From a virus: a stretch of 64,000 bases of DNA. This document shows positions 48,550 through 61,432 of this stretch, in pieces. Position numbers and translations under genes: made by a program. The stretch is from IMG/VR virus record IMGVR_UViG_3300028844_004552, positions 9,629 to 73,628 of that record. The stretch is one strand, 5' to 3'. Positions within the stretch are counted from its first letter, which is position 1, and the number at the start of each line of letters is the position of its first letter. The notes beneath the pieces were generated by a model. It ran no database searches. It was not told where the DNA came from and saw nothing but the letters and a program-made list of their open reading frames with translations.

Positions 48550-48580
48550 TTGACAAGAGGATTTAAATGTAGTATATTTG
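48550..48580 (+). promoter_or_regulatory. Strong early promoter TTGACA-N14-TAGTATATTTG
   Basis: Same architecture at 56271, 57596 and 59557; contains the Bacteroidota -7 element TAnnTTTG. Confidence 0.85.
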
Positions 48581-56301: not shown

Positions 56302-56335
56302 CACATATTTAAAAGATACACGTTCTTTAATTTAT

Positions 56336-56703
56336 GGGGTTGACTGGCATTTGATTGTTTATTAAAACATGATTTGTAAGCATGCACAGCGAAGTGGACA
56401 AGCTGTTAAAACTGAGACACAAATTTAACTGGAAACTTAACTGTATCCGAAAATTTCCTTGACAACGCATCGATAGGTGTGCTTGACGGAGAGATGGCTG
56501 TAGCCTAAAACAGCACATGGTACTGGTATCGTACCGAACTTCAATGATAAACGAAGTAAACATATATCCAAGATAACTTTTATTAGAAACACCGACTTGT
56601 AAAATCGGGAACTAGTAAACTTTGCTAGAATTAGAAACTAGATAAGCATGTAGAAAACACTTTATGTGTAAGCAAGACGAGAGTTCGAATCTCTCCAACT
56701 CCA
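56336..56703 (+). ncRNA. ssrA: tmRNA, tag (A)GNLTVSENFLDNASIGVLDGEMAVA*
   Basis: Acceptor stem GGGGTTG/CAACTCC with G3.U70, GAC-gagag-TTCGAAT-ctctc T-arm, GCATG helix-2 pair, taact-GGA resume context at 56431, stop at 56506-56508; CCA not encoded. Confidence 0.92.
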
Positions 56704-56742
56704 CGCTAACGCTCCACACCCACAAGTTGGGAGTGAAATATT

Positions 56743-57894: not shown

Positions 57895-57999
57895 GGGGAG
57901 ATAGTATAAGAGAGAATACTATTTCATAGAGAACCTCCTTCTTTATGAAATATTCGAGTACGACTTCGGTAAGTCAAGGTTCAAGTCCTAGTCTCCCCA
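57895..57999 (+). ncRNA. tRNA-like RNA with 13-bp anticodon-position hairpin and CCTCC loop
   Basis: GGGGAGA/TCTCCCC-A acceptor, GTAT/ATAC D-arm, GG-TTCAAGT-CC T-arm; no canonical anticodon loop. Confidence 0.75.
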
Positions 58000-58067: not shown

Positions 58068-58163
58068 CGTTGAAGTATTTAAATGATTTCAGCGAATCAT
58101 ACTCCACCTATCGTCATGGTAACGATAGCTAATAGTGTAAGTCTATTGTGGGGTACTTTAGCG
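58068..58163 (+). ncRNA. Structured RNA: outer stem enclosing a mini-tRNA-like module (YrlA-like layout)
   Basis: cgttgaagta/tactttagcg stem; inner actccac/gtggggt, ctatcgt/acgatag hairpin and aatag-TGTAAGT-ctatt T-arm-like hairpin. Confidence 0.55.
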
Positions 58164-58202
58164 GTTAGCACTATACGATACCGAGGGATAGGAAGTGCAA
58201 AT

Positions 58203-58252
58203 GGGAGTATAAGATGTAAGTCTTATTGGTAGAGCGATACTATCTACTCCCA
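58203..58252 (+). ncRNA. 50-nt mini-tRNA-like RNA
   Basis: GGGAGTA/TACTCCC-A acceptor-like stem, one hairpin, then 5-bp arm with 7-nt loop AGCGATA. Confidence 0.6.
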
Positions 58253-58257
58253 CATAT

Positions 58258-58330
58258 TGCGGGGTGGAGCAGTTGGTAGCTCGCAAGGCTCATAACCTTG
58301 AGGTCGTCCGTTCGAGTCGGGCTCCCGCTA
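58258..58330 (+). tRNA. tRNA-Met(CAT), initiator type
   Basis: Full cloverleaf, loop CTCATAA, 1:72 mismatch (T:T), A11:T24 pair; CCA not encoded. Confidence 0.93.
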
Positions 58331-58335
58331 CAAAT

Positions 58336-58384
58336 GGAGATGCATGCATTAGGCATGATTAAGGAGCAATATCTTACATCTCCA
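58336..58384 (+). ncRNA. 49-nt mini-tRNA-like RNA
   Basis: GGAGATG/CATCTCC-A stem, catgc/gcatg hairpin, 5-bp arm with 7-nt loop AGCAATA. Confidence 0.6.
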
Positions 58385-58391
58385 CTAAACG

Positions 58392-58628: not shown

Positions 58629-59267
58629 ATGAATAGAAAATTTTTGATACTAGGGAATATGCGACATGGTAAGGATACGTTCGCAGAATTGATGGGTGAA
58701 TATTACGGGCTTAAATTCCAATCATCATCACAAGCAGCTGCTGACATATTCATTTACGATACACTTAAAGACAAGTACAACTATTCAACACCAGCAGAGT
58801 GTTTCGAAGACCGAGAGGGTCATAGGCAAGAATGGTATGAGTTAATCCTTGATTATAACAAGGATGACCGAGCAAGACTAGCTAAGGGGATTCTTGAACG
58901 TGCGGATTGTTATGTTGGTATGAGAGACCATGGGGAGATTACTGAATGTATGAATCAAGGACTATTCGACCTAATTATTTGGGTTGACGCATCTGGAAGA
59001 CTTCCACTCGAACCATCCACCTCCTTCAACATTGATATGAGTTGTGCTGATATAATTATTGAGAACAATGGAACTCTAGATGAGTTTAAGGGTAAGGTTA
59101 AAAGGATTGGAAGTATTCTAATGAATCACGAACCAACAACCATTAATGAGACTGATTTTTGTAATTGTGAATACCCTAAGCCCAATGTAATGGTATTGGA
59201 TAATGAGAAGTTTATAATCTGTATTGGGTGTAATAAAGAAATTATTGCAAGTTTAGAAAAAAAGTAG
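58629..59267 (+). CDS. Deoxynucleoside monophosphate kinase-like P-loop protein
   Basis: LILGNMRHGKDT, VGMR...E, IIWVD, ADIIIENNGTL; C-terminal Cys pairs. Confidence 0.75.
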   Translation: MNRKFLILGNMRHGKDTFAELMGEYYGLKFQSSSQAAADIFIYDTLKDKYNYSTPAECFEDREGHRQEWYELILDYNKDDRARLAKGILERADCYVGMRDHGEITECMNQGLFDLIIWVDASGRLPLEPSTSFNIDMSCADIIIENNGTLDEFKGKVKRIGSILMNHEPTTINETDFCNCEYPKPNVMVLDNEKFIICIGCNKEIIASLEKK

Positions 59268-59302
59268 TATATTTGTATGTATATATAAATAAACAAATTG
59301 TT

Positions 59303-59515
59303 ATGAAAATCATTATTACATTATTTCTACTAATGTCTTTTTCAAGCCTTGCCAATGATGGTATTGTTGCTGAGAAGACAAGTTATAGTATTGAAGCTTC
59401 TTATGGACCTGGTTACCCAGGCGGTAAGAAAAATAAAAAGAAGGGTCGAAAAGGTAAACGAGCAAATAAGAAAAGAAATAAGATGTGTAGAAAGATGCAT
59501 CGTAATCGAGGATAA
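59303..59515 (+). CDS. Small secreted protein with very basic tail
   Basis: Signal peptide MKIIITLFLLMSFSSLA, K/R-rich C-terminus; tagtatatttg upstream. Confidence 0.55.
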   Translation: MKIIITLFLLMSFSSLANDGIVAEKTSYSIEASYGPGYPGGKKNKKKGRKGKRANKKRNKMCRKMHRNRG

Positions 59516-59556
59516 GCTCATTATTAAAAAAAAAATAAAAAAAAACATAAATATAC

Positions 59557-59587
59557 TTGACACGAGGAAATAAATGTAGTATATTTG
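59557..59587 (+). promoter_or_regulatory. Promoter of large ncRNA (TTGACA-N14-TAGTATATTTG), followed by UUCG hairpin and boxA-like GTTCTTTAA at 59618
   Basis: Same leader layout as tmRNA. Confidence 0.85.
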
Positions 59588-59632
59588 TGCAACGATTCTT
59601 CGGAATCATTAAAACAAGTTCTTTAATTTTAT

Positions 59633-60107
59633 GGGGGCATGTTTATGGGCACATGAACATGACAATTATGCTCGAATAATCACTACCTACAGGGGTGATA
59701 AGAGATGACGTTCCTATGGTGGGATTCTGATGGCAAACTGCTTAAGAATGGACAGGGTAGATGTTAGATGATACAGGCGAAGCTTCCTTTGGGAGTTAGT
59801 AGTTGAGTCAAGCAAATATTCCTAACAGTCGGTCCAACGTTAGTACATTTGAAAGGCAAAGCTAGATGTAATTATCTACTTGTAGCCTCATTTACTGGTA
59901 AATACATAAATCCAGTCTTGTAGCCTAATAACCTTTGATTAGTGGGTTAAGGCAATGCATAAGGTAGGAATACCGCTTCGAGAGTCTAATGACGGAGAAG
60001 AATCTAGGCTACCGCTTAGATATGTGTGTAATGAGGTAGAAAACGGTTCGAATCCGAATTAATCCAAATGCTAGAGGTGTTAAGAAGATTCCTTTTAATT
60101 TCCCCCA
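59633..60107 (+). ncRNA. Large (~475 nt) structured ncRNA of unknown family
   Basis: No ORF >=60 aa, more GC-rich than flanks, GGGGG/CCCCC-A ends, internal cgg-TTCGAAT-ccg, long-range complements, own promoter and terminator. Confidence 0.75.
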
Positions 60108-60155
60108 CTATGTTCACGTATTACTGTGAACTGTATTAAAGTTGTTTTTTTTAAG

Positions 60156-60186
60156 AAGCCCTACCTTTACTGGTGGGGCTTTTTTT
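60156..60186 (+). terminator. Rho-independent terminator
   Basis: aagccctacc-tttact-ggtggggctt plus T-tract. Confidence 0.85.
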
Positions 60187-60209
60187 ATTTATATGAAGTA
60201 TTTATTAGT

Positions 60210-60677
60210 ATGAAATTAATGTCTTTATATGAGGATGCAATGAATGAACTTATCTTTGATTATGATGAGGATGAAGACGGGGTAACTATAAGTGCTATCA
60301 AAAATAGAGAAACACTTGGTAAGATAGTTATAGTAATGATATTCGATGCTTATAGAGAATTTGAGGACGCTATAGAAGACCCAGACATAGATTTTGATGA
60401 TAATGATTACAATAAATTGTTCCCCAACGATAGATTTACTAAGATAGAACATTTAGATGTTGAAGATAAAGCTAAGGGTACTGGAATTGGAAAGGCACTT
60501 ATGCAGAAAAGCATTGCATATGCTAGAAGTGAGGGTGATAACATAATGTACTTGAATGCGTCACCAATGGGATTCAAAGGGCTTAGAATAAATGACCTTG
60601 TAGGTTTCTATAAATCATTTGGTTTCCAAACACTTATAGACTCTGGTCACAATGTTGAAATGTTTATGAACATATGA
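60210..60677 (+). CDS. GNAT-family acetyltransferase
   Basis: IEHLDVEDKAKGTGIGKALM, YLNASP, LVGFYKSFGF. Confidence 0.88.
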   Translation: MKLMSLYEDAMNELIFDYDEDEDGVTISAIKNRETLGKIVIVMIFDAYREFEDAIEDPDIDFDDNDYNKLFPNDRFTKIEHLDVEDKAKGTGIGKALMQKSIAYARSEGDNIMYLNASPMGFKGLRINDLVGFYKSFGFQTLIDSGHNVEMFMNI

Positions 60678-61432
60678 AAGAATTTATTAGAAATAGAATT
60701 AGAGAATCATTAATTGAGGAACGCCTTATGGATGTTACTGATGATGTGGATTTCATTTATGATACTTATTTTAAAAAGGATTATGAGGAAATTGATAAAA
60801 CTGGAATTATCACGGATGATATGTTTAAGAAAACACTGATTAATACATCAACATTAAAATCACCCTTAGCAGTAAAAGCAGACAAACTTAATCTTTGTAT
60901 TATACTTATTAATGAGGGTGGAGGTAATTTCTATGCCCCAACAGAACATGTAATATCTATTGGTCCAAACACAAGTGCTATAAGTTTTATAAAGGATAAT
61001 GGTGGGTCAATAAAATCTGCCGCTAGTTATTTACCAGATAATCAACTTAGTAATTTTATGAATGAGTTTAGCTCATCATCAATAAAAGGTAGTATCCACC
61101 ATGAATTGGTACATTGGATTGATGACACGTTACATAATAAACATATTAATAAACGAATAGAAAGGGCTAGTGAAAGAGGTATAACCAAAAAAGGCATACC
61201 AATAAATGCGGATAAAATGGAAATCCAATCACAAATTCACAATATAGTACAATTAAAACGTAAGTATGGTGAGATTTGGGATTCATTAACATTTGAGGAC
61301 ATGATAAAATACTCACCAGCACTAAACACAATGACTAGTACTTTCAGTGTTGAGGTTAAGAATCGATGGGTTAGGGATATTAAGACAAGAATGTATCGTG
61401 AAGGGTTGTTGGGTAAAAATATGAGGAATTAA
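60674..61432 (+). CDS. HEXXH zincin-like metallopeptidase with basic N-terminal leader
   Basis: SIHHELVHWID and downstream E (MEIQSQ); leader MKEFIRNRIRESLIEE. Confidence 0.7.
   Translation: MKEFIRNRIRESLIEERLMDVTDDVDFIYDTYFKKDYEEIDKTGIITDDMFKKTLINTSTLKSPLAVKADKLNLCIILINEGGGNFYAPTEHVISIGPNTSAISFIKDNGGSIKSAASYLPDNQLSNFMNEFSSSSIKGSIHHELVHWIDDTLHNKHINKRIERASERGITKKGIPINADKMEIQSQIHNIVQLKRKYGEIWDSLTFEDMIKYSPALNTMTSTFSVEVKNRWVRDIKTRMYREGLLGKNMRN

What the first reader, a model, noticed from the sequence alone, without database searches (positions are those of the whole stretch)
59557..60186. Large (~475 nt) ornate ncRNA with its own promoter, boxA-like leader and terminator
Seen: a complete transcription unit with no ORF >=60 aa. 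Ends pair GGGGG/CCCCC followed by A. Long-range complements include gtagcct/aggctac, cctcatt/aatgagg and ggtagat/atctact. It has a loop-E-like GAA/AGTA motif around gcttcc/gggagt and an internal T-loop cgg-TTCGAAT-ccg. The leader is nearly identical to the tmRNA leader (gttctttaattt(t)atgggg). Known: GOLLD and ROOL are large phage RNAs found near tRNA clusters, but typically longer. Inference: a compact member of those classes or a new one.
Basis: partly seen in the sequence, partly recalled or inferred. Interest (0 to 1): 0.8.

Follow-up and report, generated by a model that had tools for sequence, protein, structure and literature searches.

The report
New large structured phage RNA, possibly circular
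A marine giant phage makes a roughly 480-letter, elaborately folded RNA that codes for no protein, belongs to no catalogued RNA family, is found in environmental RNA samples, and there appears with its two ends joined as if it were a closed ring.

Summary
Window 59557-60194 is a promoter-to-terminator unit with no ORF of 60 aa or more.

It encodes a real structured RNA. I found three homologs (L024, L063, L131; 68-89% identical). Conservation starts at GGGGG and stops at CCCCC-A. On the four sequences, 95 proposed pairs are 98.2% paired and 22 carry compensatory changes; slid controls give 39-44% and 0-2.

No Rfam 15 family reaches its threshold, so it is not GOLLD, ROOL, RNase P, tmRNA or an intron. 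The only weak hit is manA (RF01745) on the 3' half: 27.6 bits in L131, 10-18 in the window, nothing usable in the other two.

The unexpected result comes from public RNA libraries. In one run, contigs identical to the window cover only 59628-60108. They close into a 481-nt cycle through a 60108-to-59628 joint.

My reading: a new family of stand-alone, trimmed, stable phage RNA, acting in trans, and probably (about 50-60%) circularised. Function is unknown. Earlier notes of this scan (e1-6160433, e1-6160443) describe an RNA on other DNA whose quoted motifs match the L131 copy.

The parts
59557..59585 (+). Promoter TTGACA-17-TATATT; the -10 runs on as TAtaTTTG
   Evidence: 11 of 12 matches. The first 31 nt recur at 90% identity at G000 58178-58208, which is window 48550-48580. 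L024 and L131 have a like promoter upstream of their copies.
59592..59627 (+). Leader that is absent from the accumulated RNA: a GAUUC-UUCG-GAAUC hairpin at 59594-59607 and GTTCTTTAA at 59618-59626, the motif shared with the tmRNA leader
   Evidence: sequence. RNA-library contigs of X3 start at 59628. The transcription start is inferred from the -10 element and was not mapped.
59628..60108 (+). The accumulated RNA species, 481 nt, as delimited by RNA-library contigs and by the head-to-tail joint 60108->59628 (or 60109->59629)
   Evidence: X3 records 3-5, 100% identical, with zero depth on the flanking genes and a joint that 'goes back 481'.
59633..60107 (+). Conserved core. Conservation begins at GGGGG and ends at CCCCC-A in 4 of 4 homologs
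59633..59637 (+). P1 5' strand (GGGGG). It pairs with 60102-60106.
   Evidence: five G-C pairs, invariant in 4 of 4.
60102..60106 (+). P1 3' strand (CCCCC)
59638..59661 (+). Hairpin A, stacked directly on P1
   Evidence: helix 2: 8 pairs, 5 with compensatory change.
59671..59704 (+). Hairpin B, with an internal loop and a UACA tip. It lies inside a 70-nt block that is identical between the window and L024.
   Evidence: helices 3-4 (2 compensatory pairs).
59706..59842 (+). Domain closed by UGACGUU (59706-59712) and AACGUUA (59836-59842). It holds CCUAUGGUGGGA, a short hairpin, and a long hairpin (59750-59835) that varies in sequence but keeps its shape and carries a conserved CUAAC-containing bulge.
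   Evidence: helix 5; (6 compensatory pairs between the window and L024 in the long hairpin; like folds in all four).
59846..59851 (+). CAUUUG, 5' strand of the long-range helix that closes the 3' domain. It pairs with CAAAUG at 60065-60070.
   Evidence: helix 6: U-A becomes C-G in L063.
59858..59883 (+). Nearly invariant hairpin AAAG-C-UAGAUG-UAAU-UAUCUA-C-UUGU
   Evidence: helix 7: 10 pairs, 9 of which never vary, so there is no covariation evidence.
59885..60037 (+). Multi-helix core closed by GCCUCAUU/AAUGAGGU. Contents: hairpin H1 (59894-59916, 13-nt loop); H2 (59923-59953, invariant loop UUGAUUAGU); and helix 59955-59961/60021-60027, which encloses three hairpins, among them GGUA-GGAA-UACC.
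   Evidence: helices 8-16. Natural variants in X3 and X13 keep the pairs of helix 59955-59961/60021-60027.
60044..60056 (+). T-loop-like hairpin CGG-UUCGAAU-CCG
   Evidence: Invariant in 4 of 4. The extra U in L131 extends this stem to 4 pairs and would break the alternative GGUUCG/CGAAUU pairing.
60073..60095 (+). Hairpin H5, AGAGG-13 nt-CCUUU. Its loop resembles that of H1.
   Evidence: helix 18; (the manA model aligns its last hairpin to H1 in L063).
59893..60105 (+). The stretch that the Rfam manA model (RF01745) aligns to, below threshold
   Evidence: 17.9 and 10.3 bits. The homologous stretch of L131 scores 27.6 bits, E 2.9e-05.
60109..60194 (+). Trailer: hairpin GUUCAC...GUGAAC at 60113-60132, intrinsic terminator at 60153-60184, then a T run
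   Evidence: X8 contig 59922-60176 runs through it; that contig may be precursor RNA or DNA.

Best explanation
This is the gene of a previously uncatalogued family of large (about 475-490 nt), highly structured, non-coding RNA. It is carried in the RNA island (tmRNA, tRNA, small RNAs) of marine or aquatic giant phages whose promoters look Bacteroidota-like.

Shown:
- It is transcribed as its own unit, from promoter to terminator.
- It folds into at least 18 helices organised in two halves. A 5-bp all-G-C helix (P1) ties the first and last conserved nucleotides together.
- It evolves more slowly than the gene next to it.
- It is not tied to any particular neighbouring protein gene.
- In environmental RNA libraries it appears as a discrete species covering 59628-60108, without the leader, the trailer or the flanking genes.
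- Molecules exist in which position 60108 is joined to 59628.

Inferred:
- The primary transcript of about 600 nt is cut in the AU-rich leader and trimmed back to within 1-2 nt of P1.
- P1 holds the two ends together.
- A ligase seals them through a 7-nt loop (CCCCC-ACUUUAU-GGGGG), giving a covalently closed, exonuclease-resistant 481-nt ring.
- The RNA then acts in trans as a stable particle. My best guess is that it binds or sequesters a component of the tRNA, translation or RNA-repair world that the surrounding island also deals with. It does not regulate the downstream gene.

The 3' half shares its helix order and nesting with manA-motif RNAs and may be a distant relative of them.
For: Unit and lack of coding.

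Homologs and boundaries: L024, L063 and L131. The flanks diverge immediately outside GGGGG and CCCCC-A.

Structure:
- 95 pairs, 98.2% of 380 cells paired, 22 pairs with compensatory change. 0 of 500 shuffles reach this. Slid controls give 39-44% paired and 0-2 compensatory pairs.
- 3' domain alone: 55 pairs, 97.7% paired, 13 compensatory.
- Natural variants in RNA libraries keep 10 of the 15 touched pairs of the window's MFE fold (X13) and 3 of 4 (X3).

Selection: the RNA is 88.6% identical between the window and L024, against 72.3% for the adjacent GNAT gene. GC is 40.6% against 33.7% for the window.

Independence from neighbours:
- The L131 copy has unrelated flanking proteins.
- All four copies are followed by a terminator-like hairpin and T run (for the window; read from the sequence for the others).
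- Only 1 of 22 and 1 of 80 GNAT-homolog loci carry the RNA.

Expression and ends:
- In X3, contigs with 0 differences cover 59628-60108 only. Bin depths fit that range exactly.
- The 403-nt contig (depth 11.5) crosses the 60108->59628 joint. With the 138-nt contig it closes a 481-nt cycle (403+138-60).
- X13, from another study and another habitat, has one 479-nt contig at 92% identity. Its ends are shifted by about 21 nt on both sides, as one turn of a ring would be.
- 10 of the 24 listed runs are on record as RNA, and 15 studies are represented.

A ligase is at hand in this phage group: an RNA_ligase (PF09414) gene lies in the L131 record.
Against: - There are only four DNA homologs in two close pairs. 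Compensatory counts therefore rest on few independent events, and shuffle controls overstate significance for related sequences.
- The joint is seen in one contig of one laid run. That run is labelled METATRANSCRIPTOMIC but 'WGS', and the tool guesses 'probably DNA'.
- Contigs cannot give the share of joined molecules. Reverse-transcriptase jumping from the 5' end of one molecule to the 3' end of another would give the same joint.
- The X13 contig can also be read as a linear piece running 59611-60087.
- X8 has a contig running through 60108 into the terminator.
- No ligase was found in the window's own record or in L024's: RtcB 0 of 3 records, RNA_ligase 1 of 3. All three records are fragments, 4-35% complete.
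- No ribozyme, bulge-helix-bulge or intron signal flanks the ends.
- The function is pure inference from context. No partner was identified.
- The manA link is weak: significant in 1 of 4 copies and not reciprocated by my own model.
Confidence: 0.6

Rival explanations
1. The same new structured RNA, but linear in the cell. It is trimmed to 5'-UUUAU-GGGGG...CCCCC-AC-3', and the head-to-tail joint is made during library preparation (template switching at RNA ends) or reflects rare ligation.
For: The joint is seen in one contig of one laid run. Contigs cannot quantify it, and the X13 contig is ambiguous. No ligase gene lies in the window's own fragment. There is a 1-nt overlap at the joint ('both = 1'), as is typical of microhomology jumps.
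Against: At a mean depth of only 11.5, a rare artefact would seldom supply the words needed to carry a contig across the joint. The graph closes to exactly 481 nt with no exit to leader or trailer. The 479-nt X13 contig from another study fits one full turn.
Confidence: 0.3
2. A self-assembling RNA-only particle of the ROOL/GOLLD type. The RNA multimerises through loop-loop contacts into a cage or ring that serves the phage. This could hold alongside the best explanation.
For: Its size, its ornate fold and its place beside tRNA/tmRNA genes in a phage are the same kind of setting I recall for ROOL and GOLLD. There are several invariant loops, among them UUCGAA (self-complementary) and two alike 13-nt loops. 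The abstract of PMC12286853, seen in the listing, reports that GOLLD, ROOL and OLE form homo-oligomers.
Against: No sequence or model similarity to ROOL or GOLLD at E up to 10. UUCGAAU is also simply the usual T-loop sequence.
Confidence: 0.15
3. A ribozyme: either an RNA-processing enzyme for the island's many odd tRNA-like RNAs (an RNase P analogue), or an RNA that cuts and joins its own ends.
For: A 70-nt block is invariant between the window and L024, and many nucleotides are invariant in four copies. The ends are joined without any recognisable flanking ribozyme or intron. The RNA lies among RNAs that all need end processing.
Against: No hit to RNase P (bacterial A or B, archaeal, nuclear), group I or II introns, or to hammerhead, twister, pistol, hatchet or HDV models at E up to 10. 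I could not find the P4-type conserved strands by eye, working from recall. 12 of 12 related phage loci have the tmRNA and 11 of 12 tRNA genes (none in L014) but lack this RNA, so it is not needed to process them.
Confidence: 0.1
4. An enlarged manA-type cis-regulator (riboswitch candidate) controlling the downstream GNAT gene.
For: manA is the only Rfam model that touches the body, and it reaches E 2.9e-05 in L131. manA RNAs are described as lying in 5' UTRs (PMC2864571, passages read). They lie upstream of protein genes in P-SSM2 and P-SSM4.
Against: A strong terminator separates the RNA from the GNAT gene. In L063 and L131 the downstream gene is a different one. RNA data show the element alone, without the mRNA. 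Scores are below the 55.2-bit cut-off in 4 of 4 copies, and the two manA helices that close that motif are not formed.
Confidence: 0.04
5. A tRNA-like or tmRNA-like RNA: cut by RNase P at G59633, given CCA by the phage enzyme (61452-62627), and perhaps aminoacylated.
For: An acceptor-like G-C helix followed by an unpaired A. The same leader as the phage tmRNA. A T-loop-like hairpin. A CCA-adding enzyme gene (PolyA_pol head domain, E 2.9e-37) 1.4 kb downstream.
Against: ARAGORN and the tRNA and tmRNA models do not call it. P1 has 5 pairs, not 7. The T-loop hairpin lies 45 nt from the 3' strand rather than next to it. The RNA species in X3 begins 5 nt before G59633, and its 3' C60108 is followed by UUUAU, not by CA. 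There is no conserved tag-like reading frame.
Confidence: 0.04

Closest known systems
manA RNA motif (Rfam RF01745; Weinberg et al. 2010, PMC2864571, passages read)
   Same: It is the only Rfam model that aligns. In L131 the full model (1-192) maps onto the 3' half at 27.6 bits. By my reading of the alignment, 8 of its 10 helices fall on helices that I had supported independently by covariation. These are two leading hairpins, a helix enclosing three hairpins, a 7-nt-loop hairpin, and a last hairpin with a long A/U-rich loop. Both are marine and phage-borne. In cyanophage S-CREM1 the annotated manA lies directly between tRNA-Leu and tRNA-Asn.
   Different: Scores are 27.6, 17.9/10.3, 11.6 (in another register) and none, against a cut-off of 55.2. 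The enclosing helix of manA and the outer stem of its fourth hairpin are not formed; those strands pair with segments outside the manA-like part. This RNA has a further ~260-nt 5' half, its own promoter and terminator, and is trimmed. My model R1 does not find S-CREM1 manA. manA lies beside tRNAs in only 1 of the 3 cyanophages with a hit (5 records searched).
ROOL and GOLLD large ornate RNAs (PMC12286853, listing and start of abstract seen; PMC5737381, listing only)
   Same: Large, elaborately folded, of unknown function, with no protein partner known. Association with phages and tRNA genes is as I recall it.
   Different: No model match at all. It is shorter (about 480 nt against about 580 and 800, figures recalled). 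It comes from a different host group and habitat. Oligomerisation was not tested.
The phage's own tmRNA (window 56336-56706, RF00023, 67.5 bits)
   Same: Same promoter type and the same GTTCTTTAATTT(T)AT leader before a run of G. The ends pair and are followed by an unpaired A, with no encoded CCA. Same island.
   Different: No tmRNA model hit, no tag reading frame, a 5-bp rather than 7-bp terminal helix, no G3-U70 pair, and a T-loop hairpin that is not adjacent to the 3' strand. The tmRNA is present in 12 of 12 related loci; this RNA is present in none of them.
DNA-encoded circular RNAs made by cutting and ligation, such as archaeal rRNA and tRNA-intron circles and permuted-tRNA intermediates (recalled, not read here)
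   Same: A terminal helix brings the two ends together and a head-to-tail joint is seen in RNA data.
   Different: No bulge-helix-bulge motif and no splicing-endonuclease gene were seen. The host is bacterial. The enzymes are unknown, and circularity is not proven.

Membership tests
ROOL and GOLLD (Rfam models) | Match to the family covariance model at or above the gathering score | tested here: not met
   No hit even at E up to 10 in relaxed searches of each of the four copies, nor at gathering score on the window.
ROOL and GOLLD | Homo-oligomeric RNA-only assembly | not testable with these tools
   This needs SEC, native gels or cryo-EM.
manA RNA motif (RF01745) | Covariance-model score of at least 55.2 bits | tested here: not met
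   27.6 bits (L131); 17.9 and 10.3 (window); 11.6 in a different register (L063); none (L024). A whole-record search found 0 of 5.
manA RNA motif (RF01745) | Order and nesting of helices of the consensus | tested here: inconclusive
   In the L131 alignment, 8 of 10 helices coincide with helices supported here by covariation. The enclosing helix and the outer stem of the fourth hairpin are marked as non-pairs.
manA RNA motif (RF01745) | Position in the 5' UTR of a protein gene (cis-regulatory) | tested here: not met
   It has its own terminator before the next gene, and different downstream genes in different copies.
Bacterial RNase P RNA | Match to RNase P models; conserved P4 strands | tested here: not met
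   No hit at E up to 10. P4-type motifs were not found by eye (from recall, not a tool).
tmRNA | tRNA-like domain with 7-bp acceptor and adjacent T-arm; tag reading frame | tested here: not met
   ARAGORN and RF00023 call only the tmRNA at 56336-56706. No conserved ORF.
Group I/II introns and small self-cleaving ribozymes | Match to the Rfam models in or beside the element | tested here: not met
   None in 59400-60300 at E up to 10. None at gathering score in L063 and L131.
Covalently closed circular RNA | Head-to-tail junction in RNA-derived sequence | tested here: met
   X3 contig with the joint 60108->59628, closing a 481-nt cycle.
Covalently closed circular RNA | Physical proof of a closed ring (RNase R resistance, gel behaviour), with tandem DNA and RT artefact excluded | not testable with these tools
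   Only contigs of one laid run show the joint.

The most novel reading that the evidence does not exclude
A giant phage encodes in its DNA a ~481-nt ornate RNA that is cut out of its transcript and ligated end to end. A G-C clamp helix is capped by a 7-nt loop (ACUUUAU) that looks like an anticodon loop. That would make it the first DNA-encoded, non-intronic circular structured RNA of a bacteriophage: a nuclease-proof RNA particle that is abundant in marine sediment and salt-marsh RNA. It may serve as a decoy or scaffold for tRNA-directed host or phage enzymes.
Probability: 0.4. Interest if true: 0.85.

Novelty: new variant of a known kind. Interest (0 to 1): 0.72.

Why it matters
Large structured RNAs of unknown function are rare. 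Each new class (GOLLD, ROOL, OLE, raiA) has so far turned out to have unusual architecture.

This one has several features that make it tractable:
- clear boundaries and a well-supported secondary structure;
- evidence of expression in nature;
- a specific, cheap, testable prediction, namely a joint at 60108|59628 and RNase R resistance.

If the ring is real, bacteriophages would join the systems that make circular RNA by cutting and ligation. That raises the question of which ligase does it, and why a phage that also carries tmRNA, odd tRNA-like RNAs, a Ro60-like protein and a CCA-adding enzyme needs such an RNA.

If the weak manA likeness is real, it would also give the first stand-alone, processed relative of an orphan 'riboswitch candidate'. 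That would bear on what manA RNAs do.

Tried and rejected
1. Synteny through the upstream 212-aa gene. All 13 related loci have the leader motif or tmRNA but none has a homolog of this RNA, by nhmmer or blastn. A whole-record BLAST of 12 of them also found none; L013 was not held.

2. Synteny through the downstream GNAT gene. The RNA was present in 1 of 1, 0 of the further 22 viral loci, and 1 of 80 metagenome loci. The twelve closest GNAT loci, L049-L060, lack it. tblastn of GNAT against phage records gave no match.

3. DNA patterns:
   - one search found only L024's contig;
   - (metagenomes) found 0;
   - one search found L131 plus 3 chance hits;
   - (genomes) found six bare 18-21-mer hits in unrelated bacteria with no further similarity;
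   - searches gave two chance hits in coding sequence;
   - one search found nothing new;
   - searches gave five chance hits.

4. A four-sequence nhmmer profile over all 140 loci then held (639,826 nt) found nothing new. Model R1 over 100 of the roughly 147 loci held at that point found only the window. L108-L147 and the loci of the other known copies were not included in that search.

5. A leader-trailer 'processing stalk': duplex energies are no better than with shuffled trailers (fractions 0.63, 0.65, 0.87). Dropped.

6. Reciprocal manA test: R1 does not hit S-CREM1 manA (best overlapping hit 2 bits, E 1.3). blastn of that manA finds only itself.

7. The idea that manA RNAs generally sit in tRNA arrays: true in S-CREM1 only. 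It does not hold in P-SSM2 or P-SSM4. syn9 and S-RSM4 had no hit.

8. Conserved protein neighbours: none between L131 and the window.

9. RtcB: 0 of 3 records.

11. Literature searches found no description of this RNA. PMC10690425 predicts 8,495 candidate RNAs from IMG/VR (passages read).

12. In one search I set the 3' strand of P1 one column off. That table's helix 1 is therefore wrong in its first pair; one search gives P1 correctly.
Full report
WHAT IS THERE. The window is part of an IMG/VR virus record of 73.6 kb, estimated 21% complete. That points to a giant phage. Its strong promoters are TTGACA-N17-TATATT running into TTTG. Between 56.2 and 60.2 kb lies an RNA island: a tmRNA (56336-56706, 67.5 bits), a tRNA-Met (58258-58330), and several unannotated small RNAs.

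The finding is the last unit of that island. It has a promoter at 59557-59585 (11 of 12 matches). That is one of four such sites in 5.5 kb, although promoter-like sites overall are at chance level, 26 against 25.6. It ends in the strongest terminator of the region, 60153-60184. No ORF longer than 40 aa overlaps the body.

IT IS A CONSERVED, STRUCTURED RNA. Related phages reached through the upstream 212-aa gene (13 loci) share the tmRNA, and all but L014 have tRNA genes, but they do not have this RNA. Through the downstream GNAT gene and through short conserved words I found three homologs:
- L024:2007-2483, an IMG/VR contig;
- L063:1180-1662, a metagenome contig, 1 of 80 GNAT loci;
- L131:2308-2798 on the minus strand, in a 122.5-kb IMG/VR contig.

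Pairwise identity is 68-89%. In all four, conservation starts exactly at GGGGG and stops at CCCCC-A, and the flanks are unalignable beyond that. Between the window and L024 the RNA is 88.6% identical, while the adjacent GNAT gene is 72.3% identical. GC is 40.6% against 33.7% for the window.

RNAalifold on the four sequences predicts 110 pairs, 23 of them with compensatory change. I then wrote down a curated set of 95 pairs in 18 helices:
- 98.2% of 380 cells pair, and 22 pairs show changes on both sides;
- no shuffle out of 500 reaches these values;
- sliding the partners by 1-3 columns gives 39-44% pairing and 0-2 compensatory pairs.

The 3' domain alone gives 55 pairs, 97.7% paired, 13 compensatory. 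The long hairpin at 59750-59835 changes sequence almost completely but keeps its shape and a CUAAC-containing bulge.

Caveat: the four sequences fall into two close pairs, so the number of independent events is small.

ARCHITECTURE.
- P1 (GGGGG/CCCCC) ties the ends together.
- Hairpins A and B follow, then a domain closed by UGACGUU/AACGUUA, which holds the variable hairpin.
- A long-range helix CAUUUG/CAAAUG (U-A becomes C-G in L063) closes the 3' half.
- The 3' half contains an invariant hairpin and a core closed by GCCUCAUU/AAUGAGGU. That core holds two hairpins and a helix enclosing three hairpins.
- A T-loop-like hairpin comes next, and outside the CAUUUG/CAAAUG helix a last hairpin follows.

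The loop-E-like motif is in 2 of 4 copies.

WHAT IT IS NOT. Rfam 15 at gathering score finds nothing in the unit. Relaxed searches at E up to 10 covered 59400-60300 and each of the four copies alone. They give no hit to GOLLD, ROOL, RNase P, tmRNA, tRNA, OLE, introns or small ribozymes. The hits other than manA all lie on the terminator.

It is not cis-regulatory, for three reasons. All four copies are followed by a terminator-like hairpin and T run. The downstream genes differ, and the neighbours of the L131 copy are unrelated to the window's. In L063 and L131 it is the last member of a small-RNA operon.

THE manA LEAD. The only model that touches the body is manA (RF01745), a marine and cyanophage riboswitch candidate (PMC2864571, passages read). 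Scores are 27.6 bits (E 2.9e-05) in L131, 17.9 and 10.3 bits in the window, 11.6 bits in another register in L063, and nothing in L024. The cut-off is 55.2.

In the L131 alignment, 8 of 10 model helices fall on helices that I had supported independently. The helices that close the manA motif are not formed. My own model R1 does not find a bona fide manA. A whole-record search finds nothing.

I therefore do not file the RNA under manA, and I rate a distant relationship at about even odds. In S-CREM1 the annotated manA lies exactly between two tRNAs. In P-SSM2 and P-SSM4 it lies upstream of protein genes with no tRNA nearby. The tRNA-array setting is therefore not general: 1 of the 3 cyanophages with a hit, out of 5 records searched.

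EXPRESSION AND ENDS. 24 public runs from 15 studies hold parts of the 1-kb stretch around the RNA. Two of them may be the source of the window. 10 are on record as RNA. I laid four runs on 59000-60800.

X3 (marine sediment, source METATRANSCRIPTOMIC, strategy WGS, guessed 'probably DNA' by the tool):
- Contigs with no difference from the window cover 59628-60108 and nothing else. The bin depths of 8.1 and 2.1 at the edges fit those limits, and the flanking genes have depth 0. DNA of this phage could not give that pattern.
- The 403-nt contig (depth 11.5) runs 59988-60108 and then 59628-59909, a joint that 'goes back 481'.
- Together with the 138-nt contig it closes a cycle of 403+138-60 = 481 nt. 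A second variant (6 substitutions and 1 insertion, depth 4.8) forms a bubble.

X13 (salt marsh RNA-seq, another study) has a single 479-nt contig, 92% identical, laid on 59611-60087. It is shifted by about 21 nt at both ends, which is what one turn of such a ring would look like. A linear piece is not excluded.

X8 (RNA-seq) has a contig from 59922 to 60176 that runs through the 3' end into the terminator. This may be precursor or DNA; the DNA run X7 of the same study holds the phage at depth about 2.

The variants seen in these runs mostly keep the pairs, 10 of 15 and 3 of 4. All four changes in strand 59955-59961 keep its pairs with 60021-60027.

HOW IT MOST LIKELY WORKS.

Shown:
- its own transcription unit;
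- a conserved fold clamped by P1;
- a discrete 481-nt species in RNA data that begins 5 nt before GGGGG and ends 1-2 nt after the unpaired A;
- head-to-tail joined molecules.

Inferred:
- an endonucleolytic cut in the AU-rich leader, and 3' trimming back to P1;
- ligation of the two ends held together by P1, giving CCCCC-ACUUUAU-GGGGG, a 5-bp stem with a 7-nt loop;
- the ring, or at least the clamped linear form, resists exonucleases and acts in trans.

An Rnl-type RNA ligase gene is present in the L131 record. RtcB is absent from the three fragments but is present in the Bacteroides control genome in the control list. The island also carries a Ro60-like DUF2828 protein and a CCA-adding enzyme.

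Which molecule the RNA binds is not known. I favour a role as a stable decoy or scaffold for tRNA- or RNA-repair-related factors, and I hold this loosely. The idea of a leader-trailer processing stalk failed its control. The resemblance of GTTCTTTAA to boxA is recalled, not tested.

NOVELTY. No Rfam family matches, no phage record matches, and four literature searches found no paper describing it. It may be hidden in closed supplementary tables of PMC10690425. Earlier first-reader notes of this scan describe an RNA on another genome whose quoted motifs match the L131-type sequence. I class it as a new variant within the known kind 'large ornate phage-borne structured RNAs'. If the ring is confirmed, that would be a markedly new property.

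Noticed in passing
L011:556-624 and L015:596-664: An HDV-like ribozyme (RF02682, 46.2 bits against a cut-off of 44) starts at the very last base of the phage tmRNA gene in two related phage contigs. The tmRNA 3' end there is probably made by ribozyme self-cleavage.
   Followed up: no
window 56322-56335; L003, L004, L007, L008, L010, L013, L014: The motif GTTC[TA]TT[AG]A lies 14-15 nt before the tmRNA 5' end in the window and in 7 of the 13 related loci scanned (L012 has no Rfam result). It also precedes the large RNA in the window and L024, and it lies just after the promoter in L063 and L131. This is a shared leader signal of the phage's RNA genes (boxA-like by recall).
   Followed up: partly
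L024:1821-1991: About 170 extra nucleotides lie between the promoter and the large RNA in L024, and they are absent from the window.
   Followed up: no
L035:1621-2300: In a related phage, a promoter with the same leader motif drives an array. It holds a tRNA-like gene with a large insertion, followed by ~60-nt hairpin RNAs with GGGGA.../...UCCCCAC ends. ARAGORN calls none of them.
   Followed up: no
L142:1216-1430 (OP535465 10215-10429): In cyanophage S-CREM1 the annotated manA RNA abuts tRNA-Leu, with a 1-nt gap, and shares one base with the annotated tRNA-Asn. In this phage it would be released by tRNA processing rather than acting as a 5' UTR.
   Followed up: partly
window 57895-57999 and 58100-58390: There are tRNA-shaped RNAs that ARAGORN does not call: one runs from GGGGAGAU to UCUCCCCA with a T-loop, and short acceptor-plus-T-arm units lie around tRNA-Met.
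   Followed up: no
L133-L138 (bacterial genomes of six phyla): The 18-mer AGGTAGGAATACCGCTTC occurs in six unrelated bacterial genomes. In four of them the match extends by the same extra base. No known RNA lies there. It is probably a conserved coding word.
   Followed up: partly
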